Shown piece after piece: positions 22,944-33,680 of a stretch of 33,680 nt of DNA (position 1 is its first letter; each line of letters starts with the position of its first letter). Under the pieces are notes generated by a model that saw only the letters and a program-made list of their open reading frames with translations, did not search any database and was not told where the DNA came from. The position numbers were made by a program, and so were the translations under genes. The stretch comes from a virus. Lineage: Duplodnaviria; Heunggongvirae; Uroviricota; Caudoviricetes. The stretch lies in the IMG/VR virus record IMGVR_UViG_2526164670_000016, positions 1 to 33,680 of that record; one strand, given 5' to 3'.

Positions 22944-24299
22944 ATGCGAATGACCGCTCCAACCAAATCCTTTACTGATGGATTTTGTGAGAATGATGAT
23001 ATTTTTGAAAGAAAAAAACTCCACGATATCATTATGCGGGTTGCCACTAACGCCCCTGATAAAAGTTTAGTTTTAGCATTAGATGATAAATGGGGTAATG
23101 GGAAAACTTCATTTGTAAAAATGATGGAGTCAGAGATAAACAAAAACCACTCCGACGATTTCGAAGTCATCTATTTTGATGCTTTTAAAAGTGATTATCA
23201 GTCTGATCCATTTGTGGCATTAACTTCTAGCATATATTCTCTTATAAACAAAAGTGATGGAAAGTTAAAAACGCTATGTAAGGAACTGTTAGACATTGGA
23301 AAAAAACTTGGTGCCTCATTTGCTATAAATGGTGCGAAGTTTGCAATCAGTACACTTTCAGGTGGGTTACTATCTGGAACCGTTTTTGATAAGGCTACAG
23401 ACACAATAACTGACTCTATCTCTTCGCCCGTAGAGGAATATATAGAAAGCAAAATAAAAAATAGTGAAAGTGAAATCGCGATTATTGAGCGGTTTGGTGA
23501 TTTATTAACTAAAATTTGTGAACAAAGTGGTAAGAAAATATTTTTTATAATCGATGAGCTTGATCGTGCCCGCCCTGACTTTTCATTAGACTTATTAGAG
23601 AAAATAAAACATATATTTTCGGTTAAAGGTGTTATTTTCCTGTTGGTTGTTAATCGTGAACAATTTGAAAAAAGCATTGAATGTCGATATGGCAATATTA
23701 ACGCAAGGCTGTACCTTAATAAATTTGTCCATTACTGGTTTAGTCTTCCGAAGAGAAGCTATCTTTCTGAGGATTGTTTAAATAGATTTAAGCACTCCAC
23801 TATAAAACAATACCTTCTCACTATAGATAATGGTAATAATTTCTTCGTTCGCAATGGCTCCCTTGTAAATACGCTGGCGTATTTGTTAGAAGTCAATGGT
23901 TGTTCACTACGAGAGGCTGAGCGTTGTTACTCTGTGTTTGCAGTTATTGCAAATCCGAATAAAATAAACGAGTACAGTACCGATGCTTATAAAGTTGCAA
24001 TGGGACTAGTTGCATTTCTGAAAGTTCATAACCCTCAAATTCTATCTGATATCATATATAAGCGATATGAATTAAAAGAAATTCTACCAAAGCTATCAAT
24101 CAAAAGAGAACATTTAGAATATATCTCGGAGGTCTACTTACTTGATCACTTACTACAGTACCACTACAAATCAGATGAAGAATTAAAAAACCCTGAGAAC
24201 CAAAATCAATTTTCTGACTTACAAGGTTATTTTGGTCGAAGAGCCCCTGTTTTAGAAATGATGTTTGAAACAGTTGAAGGGTTTAATATTAGTTATTAA
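22944..24299 (+). CDS. KAP-family P-loop NTPase (PifA-like), 451 aa; candidate phage-exclusion protein
   Basis: Walker A WGNGKTS (aa 50-56) and Walker B IFFIIDELDRARPD (about aa 200) in the KAP style, with a hydrophobic insert between them (ASFAINGAKFAISTLSGGLLSGTVF); low-GC gene with its own RBS (GAGGAAAG) in the cargo island. Confidence 0.6.
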   Translation: MRMTAPTKSFTDGFCENDDIFERKKLHDIIMRVATNAPDKSLVLALDDKWGNGKTSFVKMMESEINKNHSDDFEVIYFDAFKSDYQSDPFVALTSSIYSLINKSDGKLKTLCKELLDIGKKLGASFAINGAKFAISTLSGGLLSGTVFDKATDTITDSISSPVEEYIESKIKNSESEIAIIERFGDLLTKICEQSGKKIFFIIDELDRARPDFSLDLLEKIKHIFSVKGVIFLLVVNREQFEKSIECRYGNINARLYLNKFVHYWFSLPKRSYLSEDCLNRFKHSTIKQYLLTIDNGNNFFVRNGSLVNTLAYLLEVNGCSLREAERCYSVFAVIANPNKINEYSTDAYKVAMGLVAFLKVHNPQILSDIIYKRYELKEILPKLSIKREHLEYISEVYLLDHLLQYHYKSDEELKNPENQNQFSDLQGYFGRRAPVLEMMFETVEGFNISY

Positions 24300-24346
24300 A
24301 CCGTAAAAACATTATTTGCAGGCTCTTTGCCGCCCGCACCCGCAGA

Positions 24347-24389
24347 ATCCTGCAGGCCGACGCAAACAGTTGCGACGTCCTGCAGGATT
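24347..24389. repeat. GC-rich inverted repeat (AATCCTGCAGG ... CCTGCAGGATT with a partly palindromic 22-nt centre)
   Basis: Perfect 11-bp arms at 24347-24357 and 24379-24389 between the convergent KAP gene and the 24394-25104 ORF. Confidence 0.5.
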
Positions 24390-24393
24390 GCAT

Positions 24394-25050
24394 TCATTCT
24401 TTTGGGGGGCGACCTTCTGCACCCGCCAGCATTTTTTGATACTCCCCGACCGGATCAAACCGCAGACGCGTGGCATCTATGCCGTGGTTTTCCCGCAGAC
24501 GTTCCCATAATTTATTCACCATCCGTGACTCGTCGGGTAATTGACGCGTTATCAACTGGCCGCCAGCACTGGCCCGATAAACTTTTCCGCCAATCTCCAG
24601 ACGGCTCCCCATTAACAGCGAAACGGCCTGAATCTCTGAAATCTCAACCGAACACAACACCGCATCTGCCAGCAGACTGGCAACCGCAGGGGCAAGCGCT
24701 GCCTGCCTAGCTTTTTCAGCCTCCGATCTGGCCTCGGTTTTTTCAACGGCAGAACGCCAGGCGACATCTAATTCGCTTCCTGGCTCATAAGGTGATCCGC
24801 TTTGCCGCCTTTTGAATGGTGTTTCACGTAGTCGCCGCATCAATTTGCGCCGCGTTGGCTGGTCCATATCTTCAAAATCGACGATTTCATCGTCTGAATC
24901 TTCTGTCGTTAACTCTCCGTCAGCTGGCACAGCCATTTCTGACATTGAAAAATCGGTGATTTTTTCGTCTTCCGTAGAGTTATTGACAGAACTCGAACTC
25001 AAACACTCTGTACATTTTTGTGCAGTATAAAAAGTCTTCATGTTGATCAT
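24394..25050 (-). CDS. Hypothetical protein, acidic N-terminal region; start uncertain (ATG at 25050 or 25041; track ORF starts at a GTG at 25104)
   Basis: Single open frame across a GC-rich segment that contrasts with the AT-rich flanking cargo genes; no strong RBS; no family recognised. Confidence 0.3.
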   Translation of the reverse strand: MINMKTFYTAQKCTECLSSSSVNNSTEDEKITDFSMSEMAVPADGELTTEDSDDEIVDFEDMDQPTRRKLMRRLRETPFKRRQSGSPYEPGSELDVAWRSAVEKTEARSEAEKARQAALAPAVASLLADAVLCSVEISEIQAVSLLMGSRLEIGGKVYRASAGGQLITRQLPDESRMVNKLWERLRENHGIDATRLRFDPVGEYQKMLAGAEGRPPKE

Positions 25051-25118
25051 CAGTGCATAGACTTTTATGATTAGTTCAAAATGGCATTGTGCAGTATGCT
25101 CCACAACGGGTGAGACTT

Positions 25119-25682
25119 ATGAACATTCAAACCGAGACAATTTTTAGCATTGGGCATGGTGCTCGCAGGCTAGAAGAATTTATAGCTTTGTTGAAAAAAT
25201 ATCATATCAGATATGTTATAGACGTTCGTTCAAAACCCAGATCTAGGTTTCACCCACATTTTAATCGTGAAGCTTTGACTCTTCATTTGAAAGAAGCAGG
25301 CATTCGATACGTATTCATGGGAGAACAATTAGGTGGTATTCCTAAAGATGATCAATGTTACGATGAAGACGGACGGGTTGATTACGAAAAAATAAAAAAC
25401 AAAGCTTTTTTCCATGAGGGAATTGAGAGAATAAAAACGGCTCATTCAAAAAATTTAAAAATTGCATGTATGTGTAGCGAGCTATCCCCTTGCGATTGCC
25501 ATAGAAGTAAATTAATTGGTGATTACTTGCAATCACTCGGGATAGAAATGCAGCATATAGATAAGAAAGGAGATATTAGTTCACAAAATGACGTAATGAA
25601 GGAAGTGCTCGGCTCAAACGGTGAATTGGACCTATTTTCGGACAACACCAAAAAATTAAAATCAAGAAAATCGTATCGTTGA
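25119..25682 (+). CDS. DUF488-like protein, 187 aa
   Basis: N-terminal IFSIGHGARRLEEFIALLKK...VIDVRSKPRSRFHPHFNRE and later CMCSE..PCDCHR match what I recall as the DUF488 signature; ATG at 25119 with GGTGAG upstream (track ORF starts at a GTG at 25089); low GC. Confidence 0.55.
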   Translation: MNIQTETIFSIGHGARRLEEFIALLKKYHIRYVIDVRSKPRSRFHPHFNREALTLHLKEAGIRYVFMGEQLGGIPKDDQCYDEDGRVDYEKIKNKAFFHEGIERIKTAHSKNLKIACMCSELSPCDCHRSKLIGDYLQSLGIEMQHIDKKGDISSQNDVMKEVLGSNGELDLFSDNTKKLKSRKSYR

Positions 25683-25697
25683 ATAAAGGGTATTGAG

Positions 25698-26309
25698 ATG
25701 AATACTGATGTAATAATTCTTTCCAGAACAAAAATGTCTGGAGATAAAATTTGCGTAGGTGGATTAGATCTTAATAGTGGGAAGATGTTAAGATTATTGG
25801 ATAATAGAGCAAGTGCTTTGACTTCAGCTTATCCATATAGTATTGGCGAAACATACTCAATAGAGTTTGCTGAAAGGTATCAAGTAGCAGCCCCACATGT
25901 TGAAGATGTAGCTGTTTATGACTACAGCTTAGCGAAAAGTTTTAATAAAGTAGATCTAGATACTATCGTCCATAAACACTCTGGTACATATAACAATCTT
26001 AGTGAACTCTTCTCTGGAAAACTTCACTGGCAAAACTCCAAGGGATATGCTTTGGAGTCAGACCCTCCGGAATTTAGCGTTCAAATAGCAAAAATTAATA
26101 AAATCCTAGTTAGAAATGGAACTGACTTTCAAGAGTTCGGCTCACTCAATCCGCGCAAAGTTAAATATGTTGGCGAACTTGATATAAATAGACTCCCTAG
26201 TAGAATAAATCCTGGCACACCTATTAGATTTTCTTTAGCTCGACCTTGGGATAAGGATAATAATGGTATTAAAGTGTGTTATTTACAACTATCTGGAGTT
26301 TACATTTAA
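25698..26309 (+). CDS. Hypothetical protein, 203 aa, co-operonic partner of the DUF488-like gene
   Basis: ATG 15 bp after the DUF488 stop with AAAGGG..GAG upstream; AT-rich; no family recognised. Confidence 0.5.
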   Translation: MNTDVIILSRTKMSGDKICVGGLDLNSGKMLRLLDNRASALTSAYPYSIGETYSIEFAERYQVAAPHVEDVAVYDYSLAKSFNKVDLDTIVHKHSGTYNNLSELFSGKLHWQNSKGYALESDPPEFSVQIAKINKILVRNGTDFQEFGSLNPRKVKYVGELDINRLPSRINPGTPIRFSLARPWDKDNNGIKVCYLQLSGVYI

Positions 26310-26428: not shown

Positions 26429-28927
26429 TTACTCTATCGCCTTTCTCCAGCGACTGAGCAACTCATCAACTCTATGCCTTGCCAGCGTTTTACGCCAGTT
26501 CATATCCGCACCGGTCACAATCAACTCCCCTGTAATTTGGTTGGCACGGTAAGTAGTATCAAGCGCAGTCACTTCTCTCCCTTGTACCAGCTTTAGCACT
26601 TGCACAGGTGTGATTTGGATCTTTCTTAACTTCGCCCAATCCAGTACCTGAGCAACTAGGGCTGTAACGTTCTTATCTACTACGCTTTCTTCCTGGCGGA
26701 GCGCATACGCGGCTTTTAAATAGCTTTCCGCTCTAGCTCGGTTATATTCGGTGCACTCACCCACAGTGATACTGTACGCAAGTGACTCAAACTCATCTGC
26801 TGCTGAAACACGCTGCGTTTGTTTGTGGATTTTCAGGCCTTCAGCAATCTCTTTTTTCTGTTCCCACCTTAATTTGCCGATTTCAAATTGCTCTGGAGAT
26901 TCATCCCTAGTCGGCAAAGTCAGATCTGGCCGATAAACAACCTGGCAATCTGTTTGTTTTTTGTACTCAGTACAGTTATTGACACGAGTCCTAGAGGGCG
27001 CAGACGCGCCCTTAAGGTCAACAGCAAGGTCAACGGCCTTGCCTGAATCGTTAATAATCTCCGGTTTCTTACGCACAATCCGATAAGAATGTAGGCGGGT
27101 TTCAACTGGCGGCATGAAGATGTGAGGCATCACCAGTCCTTTAATTAAGGTCTGGTATTCACCGTGATCGTTTGGCTGGTCTTTTTGTTGATACCAGATG
27201 CGCAGTGGCAGATCACAACGGGCAACCAACGCCCCACCCTGCAATTGGGTGTATTGCTGCCAGTCGCCAGCATCCGCTGCACGGTGCAGCTCGGCAAACA
27301 ACGGGTTAATCTGGTCTGCCTTTTCCTGATTGCGGAATCGACGTAGCTCGCGCCAGACTGAAACAGGCGCACCACCAAGGAACTGGAATTGACGAATACC
27401 CCAGCATGATGCCCAGGCCGTCGCATGTTTTGAGGTTTCTTTTAATGGTCTGCCGTTCTCGTCATCTGTTTCACCGTCGAGCGCGTAACCATCAATATTC
27501 TTGCTGATATACTTCACCACATAACCGGTGGCGCTTCCGATTTCATGATCGATAGGCTTCATTTCGAAACGTGGACGAATGCCATGCTTACCCTGCAATT
27601 CGTCCTCATCCTCGCGGGTGGCGTAGTCCTTCATCACTTCCAACAATTCAGCTGAATGTTCTGGTAAGGAAAACAGAAGACCATGCCAGTGTGGCGTTCC
27701 GTCGTGGTGAGATTCAGCCACGCGAAGCCCAAACACCTGAATATCGCGGCGGGCCAACTCAGCGCGGATCTGTTGCCAGACTCGATTAAGATAACGTTGC
27801 GTGGTTCTTGGACTGGCCCCGTTCCATTTGCCATTACGATGACCGAAGACGGTATAGGCATGATATTTGGAAGGTGCTGTCATGGTGAAAAACTGCCCTG
27901 CATAGCCACTTTCGGTAGCGACTTTCTCGAAGCCACCGATGCGAGTCATAAGCTCAACGCGGCGCAAAGCTGGGTTAGATATGCTCTTATCTATTTGCTC
28001 AATGAGTGAAATGCGTTCTTTGGTTTCCTGATCTTCCAGCTCAAGCCTGGCCATAATCGCCCGGCTGCGTTTCCGCCTAGTGTCCCACTCTTCAACATGA
28101 TGCTTACTGCAATATGGCGCAGCGCCTCGCTTCACATCACCAAAAGCGATGTGCAGATGTTCACGCCAGCGCGTGCCGTACTTTTTAAGATTTCGGTGCC
28201 AGTAGCGATCATCCAGCATCTTGCTGATACCGGTCGTCGCCTCATCAATAAACAATTTACCCCGGCAATACTTTTCCCAGTTCGGTGGCGTTAGAAAGAA
28301 AAGACGCGCAAGTTGTGCCGCCTCGGTGTAAAGGTATTCGGCATACCGGCGATCACTTTGCGTCTCTACCGTTTCGTGTACCTCGCTCAGCACCGACCGC
28401 ATATAGATCGCAATATCCTGCGCTAATAGTTCAACATCTTCCGGCGTGTAGTCCGGCAGCCTGTTGAATCTCTCAACTAAACCGTTAAGGGTATCAAATA
28501 CATGGTAAAGCGGGTTTAACTTTTTGAATGCTGTTTCAGCTTGTGATTTTGCGTCTTCGGTCATCGCAATTGCGTATTGAGCATTCACCATATTGATGGG
28601 CGGCAGCTCTCTGCGGATGATGTCTCTTACTGCCTGACGGGCAATATGTCGGCCCTTCATCGTGTGAATACTGTCAATGCGAGAAGCCAAGCGCAGGCGT
28701 ATAAAGCGAGGAAGTCTCGAAAGGGTAAGTTTCACCCACGACAAAAACTCTTGTTCTTGACCCAATTCGAATAGATCAACAACAGGAGTCTTATCAACAT
28801 AAATAGCTGCATTAGGCTTTTGCCACTCGTAATCGTAATTGATATCAGCAGCAGAATTAGACATACCCCTGCCGCCAACTAACTGGCGGCGATTGTTACT
28901 CGGCCGAACAAACGCGGAGTCTGTCAC
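26429..28927 (-). CDS. A: Replication initiation endonuclease (P2 gpA-like rolling-circle initiator), 832 aa from the GTG at 28927
   Basis: HUH motif (DGTPHWHGLLF) and catalytic tyrosine motif (GYVVKYISKNIDGYALDG) as I recall from P2 gpA; GTGA overlap with the Dam stop, alternative ATG at 28864. Confidence 0.85.
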   Translation of the reverse strand: MTDSAFVRPSNNRRQLVGGRGMSNSAADINYDYEWQKPNAAIYVDKTPVVDLFELGQEQEFLSWVKLTLSRLPRFIRLRLASRIDSIHTMKGRHIARQAVRDIIRRELPPINMVNAQYAIAMTEDAKSQAETAFKKLNPLYHVFDTLNGLVERFNRLPDYTPEDVELLAQDIAIYMRSVLSEVHETVETQSDRRYAEYLYTEAAQLARLFFLTPPNWEKYCRGKLFIDEATTGISKMLDDRYWHRNLKKYGTRWREHLHIAFGDVKRGAAPYCSKHHVEEWDTRRKRSRAIMARLELEDQETKERISLIEQIDKSISNPALRRVELMTRIGGFEKVATESGYAGQFFTMTAPSKYHAYTVFGHRNGKWNGASPRTTQRYLNRVWQQIRAELARRDIQVFGLRVAESHHDGTPHWHGLLFSLPEHSAELLEVMKDYATREDEDELQGKHGIRPRFEMKPIDHEIGSATGYVVKYISKNIDGYALDGETDDENGRPLKETSKHATAWASCWGIRQFQFLGGAPVSVWRELRRFRNQEKADQINPLFAELHRAADAGDWQQYTQLQGGALVARCDLPLRIWYQQKDQPNDHGEYQTLIKGLVMPHIFMPPVETRLHSYRIVRKKPEIINDSGKAVDLAVDLKGASAPSRTRVNNCTEYKKQTDCQVVYRPDLTLPTRDESPEQFEIGKLRWEQKKEIAEGLKIHKQTQRVSAADEFESLAYSITVGECTEYNRARAESYLKAAYALRQEESVVDKNVTALVAQVLDWAKLRKIQITPVQVLKLVQGREVTALDTTYRANQITGELIVTGADMNWRKTLARHRVDELLSRWRKAIE

Positions 28928-29910
28928 CGCTCAGACTCCACGCCACATGTCGCAGCCGTTGCCAGCATTTCGTTATAGGTCGCGTTACCCATTACAGGGC
29001 CACAATCAGGGCAACCACCACCACCGGCACGACCACAGCCGCTACACAATTTGAGGACGCCGATCACTTCACTGGCGGCCCCTCGGGTAATGGCGTTCGC
29101 GCTAACAGAACGGTTAACGCTGATTTCCTGGAAGTTGAAACAGCGATAAATCTCGCGGGTGACTGGGGTGTCGCTATTGGACAGGATCACCGGCGAACCA
29201 GTAAGGCGGTTAATATCCAGCAGGACGGCAGCTAACTGGCGATGTTCTTTAATGCCAAACGGGGCTGTGTGATATTGGGTGAAATTAGCTGTTTCGCTTG
29301 TTGGCAGGTATGGCGGATCGCAGTAGATAACCGCGTCACTACCAATCATGATTTTTAACGTGCTCTGGAAATCGCAGCACACGAAAATGGCTTTCGTGTC
29401 GTTAGCTTTTTCAGAGAATAAACGGATCTGTTCTTCCGGGAAGTAAGGCGGGGTTTTGTGACGCCCAAAGGGAACGTTATATCCACCCTGTTGGTTGTAG
29501 CGTACTACGCCGTTATATCCGTGACGGTTCAGGTAAAGAAATTGTGCTGCACGAAGAATCTTGCCCGCGTCCGGCCCATCTTCAAACACACTGCGCAATG
29601 ACAGTAGGTCACGTGCGCGGGCGTTGAAATCATCGCGGATCCATTTATAGCCGTCTTTATCGCCGTACACTTTAAACAGTGGGCGAGCAGCGTCGATCAC
29701 CGCATCAGGCCAGCGGGTTATCTGGCGATACAGGTTAATTAAATCTGGGTTGATATCACCCAGGATATAACGGCGATATTCAGTATTGAGGAAAACAGAA
29801 GCACCGCCGACAAACGGTTCCACCAGGCAATCGGCTTTCGGCAGAATCGGCAGCAAATCAGGCATAACGCGGCCTTTACCACCGGGCCATTTAACGAGAG
29901 ATCGAATCAT
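28924..29910 (-). CDS. DNA adenine methyltransferase, Dam-like, with a Cys-rich C-terminal extension, 328 aa
   Basis: WPGGKGRV...EPFVGGASVF (SAM-binding) and IYCDPPY (catalytic DPPY) closely resemble E. coli Dam from memory; extra tail CSGCGRAGGGGCPDCGP; GGAG RBS before the ATG at 29910. Confidence 0.85.
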   Translation of the reverse strand: MIRSLVKWPGGKGRVMPDLLPILPKADCLVEPFVGGASVFLNTEYRRYILGDINPDLINLYRQITRWPDAVIDAARPLFKVYGDKDGYKWIRDDFNARARDLLSLRSVFEDGPDAGKILRAAQFLYLNRHGYNGVVRYNQQGGYNVPFGRHKTPPYFPEEQIRLFSEKANDTKAIFVCCDFQSTLKIMIGSDAVIYCDPPYLPTSETANFTQYHTAPFGIKEHRQLAAVLLDINRLTGSPVILSNSDTPVTREIYRCFNFQEISVNRSVSANAITRGAASEVIGVLKLCSGCGRAGGGGCPDCGPVMGNATYNEMLATAATCGVESER

Positions 29911-29980: not shown

Positions 29981-30376
29981 TTAATTTACTGCGTTATCTG
30001 GCGCGGGTGGTTTGTCGCGTATCGCCTGAATTTCGGCGCGTGGTGCGGCGTAGTCCTCAAATTCCCACGGCATTGATGCTGCAAATTCGGAAAGGCGCTT
30101 AATGCCCATCAAAAGGCACGTTTGCTCCTTTTCGGTTAGATTTTCGTAAGTACAACCCAGCTGTTTGGCGGTCAGCTTCGGCATTCCGACTATGTATCTG
30201 GACGCATCGTTTGCCAGGATGAAAATCACCTTTTTGCAGGCATCATCCAGGCGGTTAAAACGGGTTGCAGTGTCATTCACGCGTGAGGCGTTCAAACTGG
30301 CTTGCAGCCGCGCCCGTTGCTCTAAGAACTGGCGGCGACCTGGCTGTTGTTCTGTCTTATCCATCAACATAACCAC
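29981..30376 (-). CDS. Hypothetical early-operon protein, up to 131 aa (sits where P2 has gene B, but not recognised as B)
   Basis: ORF in the early operon between the 97-aa ORF and the Dam gene; several candidate starts; no family recognised. Confidence 0.4.
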   Translation of the reverse strand: MVMLMDKTEQQPGRRQFLEQRARLQASLNASRVNDTATRFNRLDDACKKVIFILANDASRYIVGMPKLTAKQLGCTYENLTEKEQTCLLMGIKRLSEFAASMPWEFEDYAAPRAEIQAIRDKPPAPDNAVN

Positions 30377-30385
30377 CTCCCCGAA

Positions 30386-30679
30386 CTACGCAAAGATGCC
30401 CATTAAGCGGGAAAACCAGCGGCGCTTATTACGCGGGCGCGACATGAACGGTACACGGTAGTTTTTAACAAATTGAACATCTAACGCTTTCGGCTGGAAG
30501 AACCTCCCGTCCGGGGTTTCAATCCAGCCACGTTGATGCTGACGGTGGGTGATCTGCTGGCCGTGGGTGAGCAGGCTGGCGAGTGAAGGGCACTGTGTTA
30601 AGTCCATGATGATCTCCGTCATATTGAAAAGATGCCGGGATATAACCCCACGCCCGGCACGTGTTTCCTGTGATAACAT
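30386..30679 (-). CDS. Hypothetical early-operon protein, 72-97 aa depending on start
   Basis: ORF with an internal ATG (MDLTQ...) preceded by GGAG; basic C-terminus; no family recognised. Confidence 0.3.
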   Translation of the reverse strand: MLSQETRAGRGVISRHLFNMTEIIMDLTQCPSLASLLTHGQQITHRQHQRGWIETPDGRFFQPKALDVQFVKNYRVPFMSRPRNKRRWFSRLMGIFA

Positions 30680-30745
30680 CGCTATGCCTGTGAAACTTTG
30701 GAGAGTGAATCAGGCATAACAATCACCAACACAGAAGGAGTTGTA

Positions 30746-31225
30746 ATGAAATTCAATGTATTTTTTAAAAAAGACCACGGATCACACTGGGTGCTTTCCG
30801 ATGGTGCCCCCCTCTTTGAAAGTCCACTATTTGAAACAAGACCTAAAGCCATTGATGACCTTGAGAACTTTGTAGGCCTTATGGAATCGCCAATCTTTAT
30901 TAAGGCTGGTGACGATATTAATTCTGGCGATACAGAAAACTGTCCATCTGTAGTTATTTCTTTAAAACAGCATGAATCGCTATGGGGCTGGGAATTATTT
31001 ATCTCAAAAAATGGACAACTGTCTAAAGTTACCGAAAGTTCAGGAAATGGCTTTGACTCATTAGAATTAGCAAAGCAAAATGCCCAGTTTTTCCTTAATG
31101 CCATTATCGACGCTCCTATTCTGGATCAAGCCGATGTCGCTATCCCCAGCATGCACTTCTCAAAATCTTTCGAGGAAACGCACCACATTGGTGACACTCA
31201 CCCATCTAGTAAATGGTTCAAATAA
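30746..31225 (+). CDS. YegP-like protein with two DUF1508-like repeats, 159 aa
   Basis: Strong RBS AAGGAG 6 nt before the ATG at 30746; two repeats (...HWVLSDGAPLFESPLFETRPKAIDDLENFV and ...WGWELFISKNGQLSKVTESSGNGFDSLELAKQNAQFF) resemble YegP from memory; low GC; opposite strand to the early operon. Confidence 0.5.
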   Translation: MKFNVFFKKDHGSHWVLSDGAPLFESPLFETRPKAIDDLENFVGLMESPIFIKAGDDINSGDTENCPSVVISLKQHESLWGWELFISKNGQLSKVTESSGNGFDSLELAKQNAQFFLNAIIDAPILDQADVAIPSMHFSKSFEETHHIGDTHPSSKWFK

Positions 31226-31229
31226 TCCA

Positions 31230-31586
31230 TCACTGTGGCGTTATCGTTTTTCTTGTGCGAGGTGGTACATCTCGCACGGTTTCTTCATCAACAATCAACT
31301 CATAAACTCTGATGCTGTTATCACCTTTTGATACGTCATCAAATACCTGAAAAAGAAAACTCATGAATTGCTCATAAGTGACGCTGGGTTCAACATACCC
31401 ACCTGTAACCTCAATTAATGGTGTTAGTCCTGAATTATCTGCTAACGAAACGCAGTCCAACTTATCCAAACGGAAAAAGTAATTACCGCAAGGTGTTCTT
31501 TTATCCTTAATCCGTATAAACACATTTGATAACGCTGTATGACTATCTGAGAGTTTAAAGATTTTTGCCGTGTCCATTTTATTCAA
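31230..31586 (-). CDS. Hypothetical protein, 118 aa, immediately downstream of cox
   Basis: AT-rich ORF in the position occupied by orf78 in P2; no family recognised. Confidence 0.35.
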   Translation of the reverse strand: MNKMDTAKIFKLSDSHTALSNVFIRIKDKRTPCGNYFFRLDKLDCVSLADNSGLTPLIEVTGGYVEPSVTYEQFMSFLFQVFDDVSKGDNSIRVYELIVDEETVRDVPPRTRKTITPQ

Positions 31587-31599
31587 CCCTGTAAGTTGC

Positions 31600-31875
31600 T
31601 TATGATGGATTGCCCAGACCCAACCACATTAACCACCCTTCCCTAATTTCCTTCGGGCGGCTCTCATACGCCATTTTCATGCCGTTGTTCCAGGCTGGAA
31701 GATAGACCCAGTACTCACCTGCCCGCCCGGAAGTTGATTGCGGATCGGTCATTTCAACTACAGGTAGCTTTCCTTTTTCAATCATCCCCTTCACCGCTGC
31801 CGGTGTTTTACCAATGAGTTTTGCGAACTCCTGATATGGGACGGCATCTGTGCTTAACGCGATCTGTTTAACCAT
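31600..31875 (-). CDS. cox: Cox (P2-type excisionase and transcriptional regulator), 91 aa
   Basis: Near-identical by memory to P2 Cox (...DAVPYQEFAKLIGK...GKLPVVEMTDPQSTSGRAGEYWVYLPAWNNG...AYESRPKEIREGWLMWLGLG); divergent from C. Confidence 0.85.
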   Translation of the reverse strand: MVKQIALSTDAVPYQEFAKLIGKTPAAVKGMIEKGKLPVVEMTDPQSTSGRAGEYWVYLPAWNNGMKMAYESRPKEIREGWLMWLGLGNPS

Positions 31876-31937
31876 TTAAGGCCCTCACAAGTTTAAGAAT
31901 CGTCACCAATGGCTTATAGTTGCTTTTGATGTTCATT

Positions 31938-31991
31938 TCTAAACATCAAACAGTCTACATCTAAATCAAATAGTATTGAGATCTAAACACC
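31938..31991. promoter_or_regulatory. Immunity switch region: three direct repeats of TCTAAA(C/T) spaced exactly 22 bp (starts 31938, 31960, 31982); candidate C-repressor operators overlapping the Pe/Pc promoters
   Basis: Direct repeats with two-helical-turn spacing in the cox-C intergenic region; P2 C is known to bind paired direct repeats flanking the early promoter -10. Confidence 0.45.
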
Positions 31992-32291
31992 ATGTCAAAC
32001 GCCTTAAACGAGAAAATTGTACTCATCAGAAAGTCTGAGTATCTCAGCAGACAGCAACTTGCTGATTTAACAGGCATTCCCTATGGCACTTTAAGTTATT
32101 ACGAAAGTGGTCGTTCTACACCGCCCACGGACGTAATGATGAGGATTTTGCAAATGCCCCAGTTCAGCAAATACACGTTGTGGTTTATGACCGATCAGGT
32201 TGCTCCCGAAGCCGGTCAGATAGCACCGGCCCTCGCACACTTTGGGCAAGATGTAACAACATCGCAGCACTCAGACCAAAAGATTGGTTAA
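31992..32291 (+). CDS. C: Immunity repressor C (P2-type), 99 aa
   Basis: Near-identical by memory to P2 C (MSN...EKIVL.RKSEYLSRQQLADLTG.PYGTLSYYESGRSTPPTDVMM); 99 aa as in P2; followed by int. Confidence 0.85.
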   Translation: MSNALNEKIVLIRKSEYLSRQQLADLTGIPYGTLSYYESGRSTPPTDVMMRILQMPQFSKYTLWFMTDQVAPEAGQIAPALAHFGQDVTTSQHSDQKIG

Positions 32292-32436: not shown

Positions 32437-33221
32437 ATGACAATTAAGAAACTCGATGATGGTCGTTATGAAGTGGATATCAGACCTGCAGGGCGCAACG
32501 GAAAGCGCATCCGCAGGAAATTTGACAAGAAAAGTGAGGCTGTAGCTTTTGAGAAACACACTCAATACAACCATCACGATAAAGAATGGCTAGCTAAACC
32601 GACAGATAAGCGGCATCTGTCTGAATTAACAAAAGTCTGGTGGGATCTGAAAGGCAAGCATGAAGAACACGGAAAATCCAATTTGGGTAAGATTGAAATC
32701 TTTACCCGGATCACTGATGACCCTTGCGCGTTCCAGATAACCAAAGCGCTTATTAGCCAGTACAGCATGACTCGCAGAGGGCAAGGCATAAAACCGGCCA
32801 GTATTAACCGCGACCTTACCTGCCTGAGTGGTATGTTTACTGCGCTAATTGATGCGGAACTGTTTTTTGGCGAACACCCTTTCAGAGGGATGAAAAAGCT
32901 CAAGGAGCAGAAACCAGAAACAGGCTATCTGACGCAGGAAGAAATAACATTGTTACTTGCCAATCTTGACGGGGACAACAAGAAAATCGCGATCCTCTGT
33001 TTAAGTACCGGCGCTCGATGGGGTGAAGCCGCGAAACTGAAAGCTGAGAACGTAATACAGAATCGGGTGACGTTCGTTAAAACAAAGACGAACAAACCGC
33101 GCACAGTCCCTATCTCTGAGGAAGTTGCTGTAATGATTGCGGGTAAAGGTTATCTGTTCCCTGATGCCTCATATCCGAAGTTCAGGCGAACAATGAAAGA
33201 TGTAAAACCAGATCTACCGAG
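32437..33221 (+). pseudogene. int: Tyrosine integrase (P2 Int-like), 3'-truncated by IS insertion; about 261 of an expected ~337 aa retained
   Basis: N-terminal 260 aa strongly resemble P2 Int from memory up to ...KDVKPDLPS; after about 33221 the frame reads unrelated sequence (LYIDLCNCLILICS...) into the IS; the C-terminal catalytic region is absent. Confidence 0.8.
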
Positions 33222-33680
33222 CCTGTACATAGATTTGTGTAATTGCCTGATTTTGATATGTTCAATCCAGCATCAAATGAAGGTTAATTTATGGACGAAA
33301 AACAGTTACAGGCTCTGGCTAACGAACTGGCCAAAAACCTCAAAACCCCTGAAGACCTCAGTCAGTTTGATCGGCTGCTGAAAAAACTCAGCGTTGAAGC
33401 CGCTCTCAATGCTGAGATGACACACCATCTTGGGTATGAGAAAAATCAGTCCAGACCAGGAGCTAACTCCCGCAACGGTTATTCCACAAAGACCGTTATC
33501 ACAGGCGACGGTCCACTGGAACTGCGTACTCCGCGCGATCGTGACGGTACCTTCGAACCGCAACTGGTAAAGAAAAATCAGACCCGTATTACCGGGATGG
33601 ATAACCAGATCCTGTCGTTGTATGCCAAAGGGATGACCACCCGTGAGATAGCTACTGCGTTCAAAGAACTGTATGACGCA
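33221..33680 (+). mobile_element. IS256-family insertion sequence (IS1414/IS285-like), left end and 5' part; continues beyond the window
   Basis: Transposase ORF begins at 33291, about 70 bp inside the inferred left end; the boundary is placed where the integrase homology stops (plus or minus 10 bp). Confidence 0.7.
33291..33680 (+). CDS. IS256-family transposase, N-terminal 130 aa (partial, runs off the window)
   Basis: MDEKQLQALANELAKNLKTPEDLSQFDRLLKKL...NSRNGYSTKTVITGDGPLELRTPRDRDGTFEPQLVKKNQTRITGMDNQILSLYAKGMTTREI is the typical IS256/Mutator-like transposase N-terminus; no stop before the window end. Confidence 0.8.
   Translation, partial: MDEKQLQALANELAKNLKTPEDLSQFDRLLKKLSVEAALNAEMTHHLGYEKNQSRPGANSRNGYSTKTVITGDGPLELRTPRDRDGTFEPQLVKKNQTRITGMDNQILSLYAKGMTTREIATAFKELYDA

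What the first reader, a model, noticed from the sequence alone, without database searches (positions are those of the whole stretch)
28924..29910. Phage-encoded Dam-like methyltransferase with a Cys-rich tail, coupled to replication gene A
A clear Dam homologue (SAM-binding and DPPY motifs) sits in the early operon with its stop overlapping the start of gene A (GTGA). It carries an extra C-terminal CxxC...CxxC segment absent from host Dam. An orphan methyltransferase here could protect phage DNA from restriction or affect GATC-dependent host processes, and the zinc-ribbon-like tail may change its targeting.
Basis: partly seen in the sequence, partly recalled or inferred. Interest (0 to 1): 0.5.

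Follow-up and report, generated by a model that had tools for sequence, protein, structure and literature searches.

The report
Prophage Dam methylase with portable zinc-knuckle tail
This is an ordinary P2-type prophage copy of the GATC adenine methylase Dam, but its last 40 residues are a small, conserved four-cysteine module of unknown function that also occurs in RecE-type exonucleases and other early phage proteins.

Summary
Window 28924-29910 (- strand) encodes a 328-aa Dam-family N6-adenine methyltransferase: PF02086 at 197 bits, TIGR00571 at 258 bits, E. coli Dam structures at E 5e-64, and a model TM-score of 0.91. It has the SAM motif EPFVGGASVF, DPPY, and 5 of 7 GATC-contact residues. 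It lies in the early operon of a P2-like prophage. Its TGA overlaps the GTG start of replication gene A, with a GGAG ribosome-binding site 8 nt upstream inside dam. Such phage Dams are already annotated; Salmonella phage SI7 is 96.6% identical.

The new part is the tail (aa 288-328). It is a discrete, swappable module. E. coli prophages share the core at 97.6% nt identity but lack the tail. 89 of the 120 closest homologues carry CxxC-x6-7-CxxC. The same roughly 30-residue motif sits inside Rac RecE (residues 517-544), in DnaQ-like exonuclease fusions, and in small early proteins of Mu-like and lambdoid phages. It has no Pfam family and is under purifying selection (pN/pS about 0.2).

Its function is unknown. 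My best guess is a zinc-stabilised adaptor, not a change in sequence specificity. Interest is modest.

The parts
28924..29910 (-). dam CDS, 328 aa, stop codon included
   Evidence: ORF list. PF02086, TIGR00571 and PDB Dam hits. 96.6% aa identity to the annotated Dam of Salmonella phage SI7.
29050..29910 (-). Dam catalytic and DNA-recognition core, aa 1-287
   Evidence: Aligns to E. coli Dam residues 5-269. The AF2 model matches 4rtj with TM 0.91 normalised to the target. E. coli prophages share exactly nt 1-860 at 97.6% identity.
29791..29820 (-). Motif I, SAM binding, EPFVGGASVF (aa 31-40)
   Evidence: Read from the sequence. Aligned to EcoDam EPFVGAGSVF.
29308..29319 (-). Motif IV, catalytic DPPY (aa 198-201)
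   Evidence: GAT CCG CCA TAC on the - strand. Aligned to EcoDam DPPY. Invariant in 57 homologues.
28927..29049 (-). C-terminal tail, aa 288-328, absent from host Dam
   Evidence: Lies beyond the end of every Dam profile or structure alignment. Missing in the 296-aa E. coli prophage variant. No Pfam family.
29002..29046 (-). Cys4 knuckle CSGCGRAGGGGCPDC (aa 289-303)
   Evidence: This is the only CxxC...CxxC in a real ORF in the window. C289, C292, C300 and C303 are invariant in 57 sequences.
28963..29046 (-). Portable module core shared with RecE (aa 289-316, CSGCGRAGGGGCPDCGPVMGNATYNEML)
   Evidence: 17 of 28 residues identical to E. coli K-12 RecE 517-544, pairwise E 5e-10. NF007259 positions 526-555, and phrog_20376 and phrog_2082. 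Profile search. Many synonymous differences from recE DNA. pN/pS about 0.2.
28936..28939 (-). GGAG ribosome-binding site for gene A, inside the last dam codons (V-E)
   Evidence: Read from the sequence; 8 nt upstream of the GTG. The same GGAG-N8-start arrangement is seen at dam 3' ends in related loci.
28924..28927 (-). GTGA stop/start overlap between dam and gene A
   Evidence: The + strand reads TCAC at 28924-28927. The A N-terminus starting at this GTG is conserved.
26429..28927 (-). Gene A, rolling-circle replication initiator, 832 aa
   Evidence: phrog_91 'nicking at origin of replication', E 3e-239. Homologues lie downstream of dam in all 25 related prophage loci examined.
31970..31998 (-). 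Pe-like early promoter (TTGACA-17-TACTAT) that would drive cox ... dam-A
   Evidence: Consensus scan only. It lies just upstream of cox at 31600-31875 (PF10743, E 6e-43).

Best explanation
The gene encodes an orphan, phage-borne Dam-family N6-adenine methyltransferase. It is transcribed from the early (lytic) promoter and translated in step with the rolling-circle initiator A, using a ribosome-binding site inside dam and a GTGA stop/start overlap. By inference, it methylates GATC on rapidly replicating phage DNA. The window has 141 GATC sites. Full methylation would let progeny DNA escape hemimethylation-dependent host processes (SeqA, MutH) and GATC-directed restriction. The last 40 residues are a separate module: a Cys4 knuckle (CxxC-x7-CPDC) followed by a short helix (GNATYNEM...). 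This module is portable among early DNA enzymes of temperate enterobacterial phages, including Dam, RecE-type and DnaQ-type exonucleases, and small Mu-like or lambdoid early proteins. I infer that it is a zinc-stabilised adaptor that tethers these enzymes to a shared partner, either a host hub protein or a DNA intermediate of replication or recombination. I do not think it determines the methylated sequence. Shown here: family membership, motifs, coupling anatomy, modularity, distribution and selection on the tail. Inferred: GATC activity, zinc binding, the adaptor role and the biological benefit.
For: Dam identity. GATC-contact residues of EcoDam are K9, Y119, N120, L122, R124, P134 and Y138 (PMC4417163). 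In the alignment they correspond to K7, Y132, N133, V135, R137, P147 and H151, so 5 are identical and 1 is conservative. There is no GATC avoidance: 141 sites against 112 +/- 9 expected. Early-operon context: Cox, Fil, A and a Pe-like promoter. Coupling. Tail as a discrete module: nt identity to E. coli prophages stops at nt 860, and those encode a 296-aa tail-less protein fused directly to A by ATGA. A 96%-identical Citrobacter core carries a different Cys-rich tail. Tail conservation: 89 of 120 homologues, with invariant Cys and Gly. Portability: RecE 517-544. The profile search of 1.84e9 representatives gave only 31 hits at E<=1e-3. These were Dam tails, PD-(D/E)XK RecE proteins, ExoVIII-N plus Rv2179c-like 3'-5' exonucleases, nuclease-less RecE relatives and 79-190-aa proteins. 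The small proteins lie next to Kil or Gam in Mu-like early regions and in a lambdoid RecT/RdgC region. Selection acts on the peptide, not the DNA: synonymous sites are near saturation (pS about 0.75) against pN about 0.16.
Against: No activity, zinc content or partner has been measured. AlphaFold gives the tail low confidence both in the full protein (pLDDT 48-64) and alone (mean 60.8), so a folded mini-domain is not demonstrated. Y138 of EcoDam, which helps read the first base pair, is His here, so relaxed first-base discrimination is possible. The pN/pS sample was chosen with a motif regex, which biases pN downward. Natural tail-less variants show the tail is dispensable for whatever the core does. 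Most tail-bearing relatives end in E-x-F, but this protein ends in VESER because of its direct junction with gene A. If the extreme C-terminus matters, this copy may be functionally trimmed.
Confidence: 0.6

Rival explanations
1. The tail is a nucleic-acid-binding zinc knuckle. It would raise the enzyme's affinity or processivity on DNA, or on ssDNA and ends produced by rolling-circle replication and recombination, rather than bind a protein.
For: Every host domain carrying the module acts on DNA: Dam, PD-(D/E)XK exonucleases and DnaQ-like exonucleases. Its size (C-x2-C-x7-C-x2-C) is similar to retroviral-type knuckles that bind single strands (my own knowledge). A conserved Arg follows the first knuckle (CGR).
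Against: The knuckle loop is Gly-rich, with no conserved aromatic residue and few basic residues. In RecE it is embedded in a strongly acidic linker. No DNA-binding zinc-finger family in Pfam matches it.
Confidence: 0.2
2. The tail alters the substrate choice of the methylase, giving a different sequence, hemimethylated-only activity or another target.
For: The extension is specific to prophage Dams and absent from housekeeping Dam. The score is below the NF008152 host-Dam equivalog cutoff, 260 against 441. The Y138-equivalent is His.
Against: The base-contact residues lie in the core and are largely conserved. The same core at 97.6% nt identity occurs without the tail or with another tail. 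The identical module sits in exonucleases that have no sequence specificity. The tail is not predicted to pack on the core.
Confidence: 0.08
3. The tail has no function as a peptide. It would be a recombination scar or linker, or exist only to carry the ribosome-binding site and stop/start junction that couples dam to the next gene.
For: The dam 3' end is a mosaic joint with several alternative endings. The terminal Glu of the common E-x-F ending is explained by a GGAG ribosome-binding site. AlphaFold confidence is low.
Against: The four Cys, and the Gly, Pro and Asp of CPDCG, are invariant or nearly so across sequences whose synonymous sites are saturated. The motif is internal in RecE-type proteins, where no coupling junction exists. 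Coupling is achieved without the tail in the E. coli variant.
Confidence: 0.07
4. The methylase is the modification half of a restriction-modification or other defence system carried by the prophage.
For: PADLOC gives strong Type II MTase hits and a weak PD-Lambda-5_B hit. The prophage carries candidate defence cargo elsewhere (PDC-S20, PDC-M45B).
Against: The best PADLOC model is 'orphan methyltransferase' at 292 bits. The neighbours are an unknown 131-aa early protein (phrog_7428) and replication gene A, with no nuclease family. The dam-upstream-of-A arrangement is conserved in 25 of 25 related prophage loci. The defence cargo is more than 2.6 kb away on the other strand.
Confidence: 0.03

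Closest known systems
E. coli Dam (EcoDam; PDB 2G1P, 4RTJ), the housekeeping GATC N6-adenine methyltransferase
   Same: Same fold (TM 0.91 normalised to EcoDam). About 37% identity over aa 3-287. Same motif order, FxGxG and DPPY. Five of seven GATC-contact residues are identical.
   Different: Below the host-Dam equivalog cutoff. Has a 12-residue insertion around aa 105-116. The Y138-equivalent is His. It is phage-borne and under the early lytic promoter. It carries a 40-residue Cys4 tail that EcoDam lacks.
Annotated Dam genes of P2-like phages (Peduoviridae): Salmonella phages SI7, SW3 and SW5, Enterobacter phage phiT5282H, Salmonella SEN4 and SEN5, Klebsiella ST16-OXA48phi5.4 and 3LV2017
   Same: Same gene in the same early-operon position upstream of gene A. 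SI7 is 96.6% identical in protein and has the same tail.
   Different: In SI7 a small ORF and a Dcm-type cytosine methylase lie between dam and A; here dam is coupled directly to A. SEN4, SEN5 and 3LV2017 match only to about aa 287, so they are tail-less or carry another tail. None of the annotations mentions the tail.
RecE / exonuclease VIII of the Rac prophage (NF007259) and lambdoid 'exonuclease' proteins (phrog_2082, phrog_20376)
   Same: They share the roughly 30-residue module CxxCGxxGGxxCPDCGxVMGDATYxE. RecE residues 517-544 are 61% identical to Dam tail 289-316.
   Different: There is no other similarity. In RecE-type proteins the module is internal, in the acidic linker before the nuclease domain; here it is C-terminal on a methylase.
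T4 Dam and other phage orphan Dams (PDB 1YFJ; my own knowledge for P1 Dmt, HP1 Dam and VT-2 Dam)
   Same: Phage-encoded GATC methylases without a cognate nuclease. Thought to keep fast-replicating phage DNA fully methylated or to evade restriction.
   Different: Only about 22% identity to T4 Dam. None is known to me to carry a Cys4 tail.

Membership tests
Dam family / D12-class N6-adenine DNA methyltransferase (PF02086, TIGR00571) | Profile score above the curated cutoffs | tested here: met
   PF02086 scores 197.1 bits against a cutoff of 22. TIGR00571 scores 257.9 bits against 114.85.
Dam family / D12-class N6-adenine DNA methyltransferase | SAM-binding motif I (FxGxG) and catalytic motif IV (DPPY), in alpha-group order | tested here: met
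   EPFVGGASVF at aa 31-40 and DPPY at aa 198-201, both aligned to the EcoDam motifs. Invariant in 57 homologues.
Dam family / D12-class N6-adenine DNA methyltransferase | Dam fold | tested here: met
   AF2 model with mean pLDDT 80.8. The top Foldseek PDB hits are all EcoDam, E 1e-26, TM 0.91 normalised to the target.
Dam family / D12-class N6-adenine DNA methyltransferase | GATC-reading residues (EcoDam K9, Y119, N120, L122, R124, P134, Y138) | tested here: inconclusive
   K7, Y132, N133, R137 and P147 are identical. L122 is replaced by V135 and Y138 by H151 (alignment; residue roles from PMC4417163). Consistent with GATC, but first-base reading may differ.
Dam family / D12-class N6-adenine DNA methyltransferase | N6-methylation of adenine in GATC | not testable with these tools
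   Needs expression in a dam-negative host with DpnI/MboI digestion or SMRT/nanopore sequencing.
Housekeeping Dam orthologue (NCBIfam equivalog NF008152) | Score above the equivalog cutoff | tested here: not met
   260.3 bits against a cutoff of 441. It is a Dam-family paralogue, not the host dam orthologue.
Orphan (solitary) phage methyltransferase | No cognate restriction endonuclease adjacent | tested here: met
   The neighbours are phrog_7428 (unknown, 131 aa) and gene A. No nuclease family was found in Pfam, PHROGs or PADLOC. The best PADLOC model is oMTase PDLC03729 at 292 bits.
P2-like (Peduoviridae) early operon gene | Located between cox and replication gene A on the same strand, downstream of face-to-face Pe/Pc promoters | tested here: met
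   Cox PF10743, Fil PF10893, A phrog_91 and an HTH repressor on the opposite strand. Promoter-like sites. The nearest phage is the Peduoviridae member SI7.
RecE / exodeoxyribonuclease VIII (NF007259) | Full-length equivalog score; PD-(D/E)XK nuclease domain | tested here: not met
   25.3 bits against a cutoff of 1269. Only aa 287-316 match profile positions 526-555. It shares a module and is not a member.
Zinc ribbon / zinc knuckle (Cys4) | Two CxxC knuckles with four conserved Cys | tested here: met
   C289, C292, C300 and C303 are invariant in 57 sequences. The CPDCG knuckle is nearly invariant.
Zinc ribbon / zinc knuckle (Cys4) | Match to a described zinc-finger or zinc-ribbon family, or a confident knuckle fold | tested here: not met
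   No Pfam hit for the tail at E<=10. AF2 pLDDT is 48-64 in context and 60.8 alone.
Zinc ribbon / zinc knuckle (Cys4) | Stoichiometric zinc binding | not testable with these tools
   Needs ICP-MS or a PAR assay on purified protein.

The most novel reading that the evidence does not exclude
The roughly 30-residue Cys4 module (CxxCGxxGGxCPDCGxVMGDATYxEM) is an undescribed portable targeting domain. Temperate enterobacterial phages would use it to deliver unrelated DNA enzymes (Dam methylase, RecE-type and DnaQ-type exonucleases, small Mu-like or lambdoid early proteins) to one common host hub or DNA intermediate. On Dam it would give replication-coupled methylation of phage DNA, analogous to PCNA-directed maintenance methylation in eukaryotes. 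It would also assign a role to part of the long-unexplained N-terminal two-thirds of RecE.
Probability: 0.15. Interest if true: 0.7.

Novelty: new variant of a known kind. Interest (0 to 1): 0.35.

Why it matters
The methylase itself adds nothing new. Dam genes in P2-like prophages are common and already annotated. What may matter is the tail. It is a short module under purifying selection, it has no family entry, and it is grafted onto several different phage DNA enzymes, including the recombineering workhorse RecE. Its restriction to enterobacterial temperate phages suggests a specific host partner. Identifying that partner would show how these phages position methylation and recombination enzymes. 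It could also explain why full-length RecE behaves differently from the truncated nuclease domain. The question is cheap to test with pull-downs and zinc assays.

Tried and rejected
(1) The search for homologous proteins with the tail alone found nothing usable: 1 candidate and no score, so that search was wasted.

(2) Pfam on the tail alone gave no family, even at E<=10.

(3) tblastn of the tail against the phage collection recovered only Dam tails in SI7-like and one Klebsiella phage. The query is too short to reach RecE-type proteins that way.

(4) AlphaFold of the full protein, and of the tail alone with a 42-sequence alignment, gave low confidence for the tail. No fold search on the tail was attempted because it would be meaningless.

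(5) Literature searches for a zinc or CxxC motif in RecE or exonuclease VIII, for 'CPDCG', and for a zinc-containing Dam in P2-like phages found no description of the module. One search was spoiled because 'RecE' matched 'receptor'. Two P2-like phage papers do not mention dam at all.

(6) DNA-level conservation of the tail, as a recombination linker, was considered and rejected because of the many synonymous differences.

(7) The idea that the module marks the position 'just upstream of gene A' was rejected. Small module-bearing proteins lie in Mu-like and lambdoid early regions.

(8) The frequent C-terminal E-x-F of relatives was considered as an SSB-tail-like peptide. The Glu is explained by a GGAG ribosome-binding site and the Phe is not. 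This window's protein lacks the motif, so the idea was not pursued.

(9) A second copy of the module elsewhere in the window was sought and none was found.

(10) Names of module-bearing clusters were looked up. Only 'exonuclease', 'RecE family' and 'hypothetical' appear, and no characterised protein.
Full report
**What is there.** The ORF at 28924-29910 on the - strand encodes 328 aa. Residues 8-267 match the D12-class N6-adenine methyltransferase family PF02086 (E 5.5e-58). The whole core matches TIGR00571 'dam' at 257.9 bits against a cutoff of 114.85. The best solved relatives are E. coli Dam structures (2g1p, 4rtj) at E about 5e-64 over query residues 3-287. An AlphaFold model (mean pLDDT 80.8) superposes on EcoDam with TM 0.91 normalised to EcoDam.

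Motif I (EPFVGGASVF, nt 29791-29820) and DPPY (nt 29308-29319) can be read directly from the sequence. The score is below the host-Dam equivalog cutoff (260 against 441). So this is a Dam-family paralogue and not the housekeeping gene.

**Sequence specificity.** EcoDam reads GATC through K9, Y119, N120, L122, R124, P134 and Y138 (PMC4417163). In the alignment these correspond to K7, Y132, N133, V135, R137, P147 and H151. Five are identical, including the key R124 and the intercalating Y119. One change is conservative, and Y138 is replaced by His. GATC is therefore the most likely target, with some doubt about discrimination at the first base. The window contains 141 GATC sites against 112 +/- 9 expected, so the phage does not avoid the site.

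**Context and coupling.** The window is a P2-like (Peduoviridae) prophage. The nearest phages are Salmonella phages SI7, SW3 and SW5, at 95.5% nt and 96.6% aa identity for this gene, where it is annotated as Dam. The - strand reads as follows:
- Pe-like promoter, 31998..31970
- cox, 31600-31875
- an unknown gene
- fil, 30386-30679
- phrog_7428, 29981-30376
- dam
- gene A, 26429-28927, phrog_91 'nicking at origin of replication'

The dam TGA overlaps a GTG, giving GTGA at 28924-28927. The peptide starting at that GTG (MTDSAF..P.N..R..VG) aligns with the annotated N-termini of A proteins from SI7 and an E. coli prophage. A GGAG sits 8 nt upstream, within the dam codons for V-E. Translational coupling of dam to A is therefore well supported anatomically.

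In 25 of 25 related enterobacterial prophage loci a gene A homologue lies downstream of dam. It is usually separated from dam by one or more small genes.

No nuclease gene is adjacent, and the best PADLOC model is 'orphan methyltransferase'.

**The tail is a discrete module.** All Dam profiles and structures stop at about residue 287. Nineteen E. coli prophages share nt 1-860 at 97.6% identity and then diverge. They encode a 296-aa protein that ends ...LKVATSTGICE and is joined to gene A by ATGA. A Citrobacter prophage has a 96%-identical core with a different, longer Cys-rich tail. So the boundary at residue about 287 is a recombination joint, and the tail is exchangeable.

Among the 120 closest homologues, 89 carry CxxC-x6-7-CxxC after the core. 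The consensus is VC.GCGR.GGG.CPDCGP.MGDATY..M. In a 57-sequence full-length alignment C289, C292, C300, C303, G297, G298 and D302 are invariant.

**The module is shared with other phage DNA enzymes.** NCBIfam and PHROGs matched residues 286-316 to the middle of exonuclease VIII/RecE profiles. E. coli K-12 RecE residues 517-544 ([28 protein letters not shown]) are 17/28 identical to Dam 289-316.

A profile of 42 tails was searched against 1.84 billion representative proteins and gave only 31 hits at E<=1e-3. These fell into five groups:
- Dam C-termini
- PD-(D/E)XK RecE-type exonucleases
- ExoVIII-N fusions to an Rv2179c-like 3'-5' exonuclease; one such cluster has more than 23,000 members in E. 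coli
- nuclease-less RecE relatives
- proteins of 79-190 aa with the module at the C-terminus

The small proteins are encoded next to Kil or Gam in Mu-like early regions, or in a lambdoid RecT/RdgC region. The tail alone has no Pfam family. I found no description of it in the searchable literature. A recent survey of lambdoid Rec modules mentions shuffling of partner-interaction domains only in general terms (PMC12315714).

**Selection.** The tail DNA differs from recE at most synonymous positions. Across nine sequences the mean pS is about 0.75 and pN about 0.16, a ratio of about 0.2. One caveat is that the segments were picked with a motif regex, which lowers pN. Conservation is at the peptide level, which argues against a DNA linker or a neutral scar.

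**Mechanism.** The core most likely methylates GATC on replicating phage DNA during lytic growth, made in step with the replication initiator. The benefit is inferred from what is known of Dam biology. It could be full methylation of fast-replicating DNA, avoidance of SeqA or MutH action on hemimethylated DNA, or evasion of GATC-directed restriction.

For the tail I commit to a zinc-stabilised adaptor that tethers several early DNA enzymes to a common partner (confidence about 0.5 within an overall 0.6). My reasons are its portability across unrelated catalytic domains, its narrow taxonomic range, its position at termini or in linkers, the absence of predicted packing on the core, and the natural tail-less cores.

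The rivals are a DNA-binding knuckle (0.2), altered specificity (0.08), no peptide function (0.07) and part of an R-M system (0.03).

AlphaFold could not confirm a fold: pLDDT is 48-64 in context and 60.8 alone.

**Peculiarity of this copy.** Most tail-bearing relatives end in E-x-F. The DNA there is GGAG-NNN-TTY-TGATG, that is, an RBS plus a stop/start overlap for the next gene. This window's protein instead ends GVESER because it is joined directly to gene A.

**Verdict.** The methylase is an ordinary, already-annotated kind of gene. The tail is a genuine, conserved, uncharacterised portable module. That makes this a new variant of a known kind, of modest interest (0.35).

Noticed in passing
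window 32437-33680: The integrase ORF matches the SI7 integrase only up to window position 33219 (aa 271 of 335). From about 33290 an IS256/mutator-family transposase reading frame begins (MDEKQLQALANELAKNLKTPEDL...). The int gene appears to be interrupted by an IS element, so the prophage probably cannot excise.
   Followed up: partly
window 22944-26309 (+ strand): There is cargo between gene A and the packaging genes. A KAP-family NTPase (22944-24299) matches PADLOC candidate system PDC-S20 (E 7e-70). A DUF488 protein (25089-25682) matches PDC-M45B (E 1e-54). A dual-OB (DuOB) protein lies at 25698-26309. These are likely anti-phage defence genes in the P2-type hotspot.
   Followed up: partly
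window 30698-31225 (+ strand): A 175-aa gene of unknown function (phrog_9021, E 3e-110) lies in the opposite orientation inside the - strand early operon, between the cox-proximal gene and fil. A terminator-like hairpin follows it on the + strand at 31253-31279.
   Followed up: no
L012-L023 (related prophage loci), dam 3' ends: Most tail-bearing Dams end in E-x-F-stop, whatever sequence precedes it and whichever gene follows. The DNA is GGAG-NNN-TTY-T(G/A)ATG. The Glu is explained by the ribosome-binding site for the next gene. The conserved terminal Phe is not explained. An acidic-then-Phe C-terminus resembles the SSB and T7 gp2.5 tail tips (my own knowledge).
   Followed up: partly
P0132, P0135, P0126, P0129, P0134 (module-bearing RecE relatives): Nuclease-less RecE-like proteins carrying the module end in ...DDEHMPDF. 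The DnaQ-like exonuclease fusions end in ...ADF or ...VDF. These again resemble the SSB C-terminal tip DDDIPF.
   Followed up: no
L011 (Citrobacter meridianamericanus) and P0001-P0007: A Dam core 93-96% identical to this one carries a different tail with nine further Cys after the first knuckle (CDGCGRYEGGHCAKCCPGIAACEEGWSFDCRGNCDICEPSDNPETW). This is possibly a two-zinc variant. The cluster has 218 member sequences.
   Followed up: no
window 29560-29619 (- strand; Dam aa 98-117): There is a 12-residue insertion relative to E. coli Dam (around LRSVFEDGPDAG) with low model confidence (block pLDDT 54). It lies between the SAM-binding region and the DNA-recognition hairpin.
   Followed up: no
L001 (Salmonella phage SI7) 4984-6131: In the closest phage, a 75-aa ORF and a Dcm-type cytosine methyltransferase lie between dam and gene A. 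Both are absent from this window, where dam abuts A directly.
   Followed up: no
window 31893-31998: There are face-to-face promoter-like sites typical of the P2 switch. On the - strand, TTGACA-17-TACTAT (31998..31970) lies upstream of cox. On the + strand, TTAAGA-16-TATAGT (31893..31920) lies upstream of the HTH repressor gene (31992-32291).
   Followed up: no
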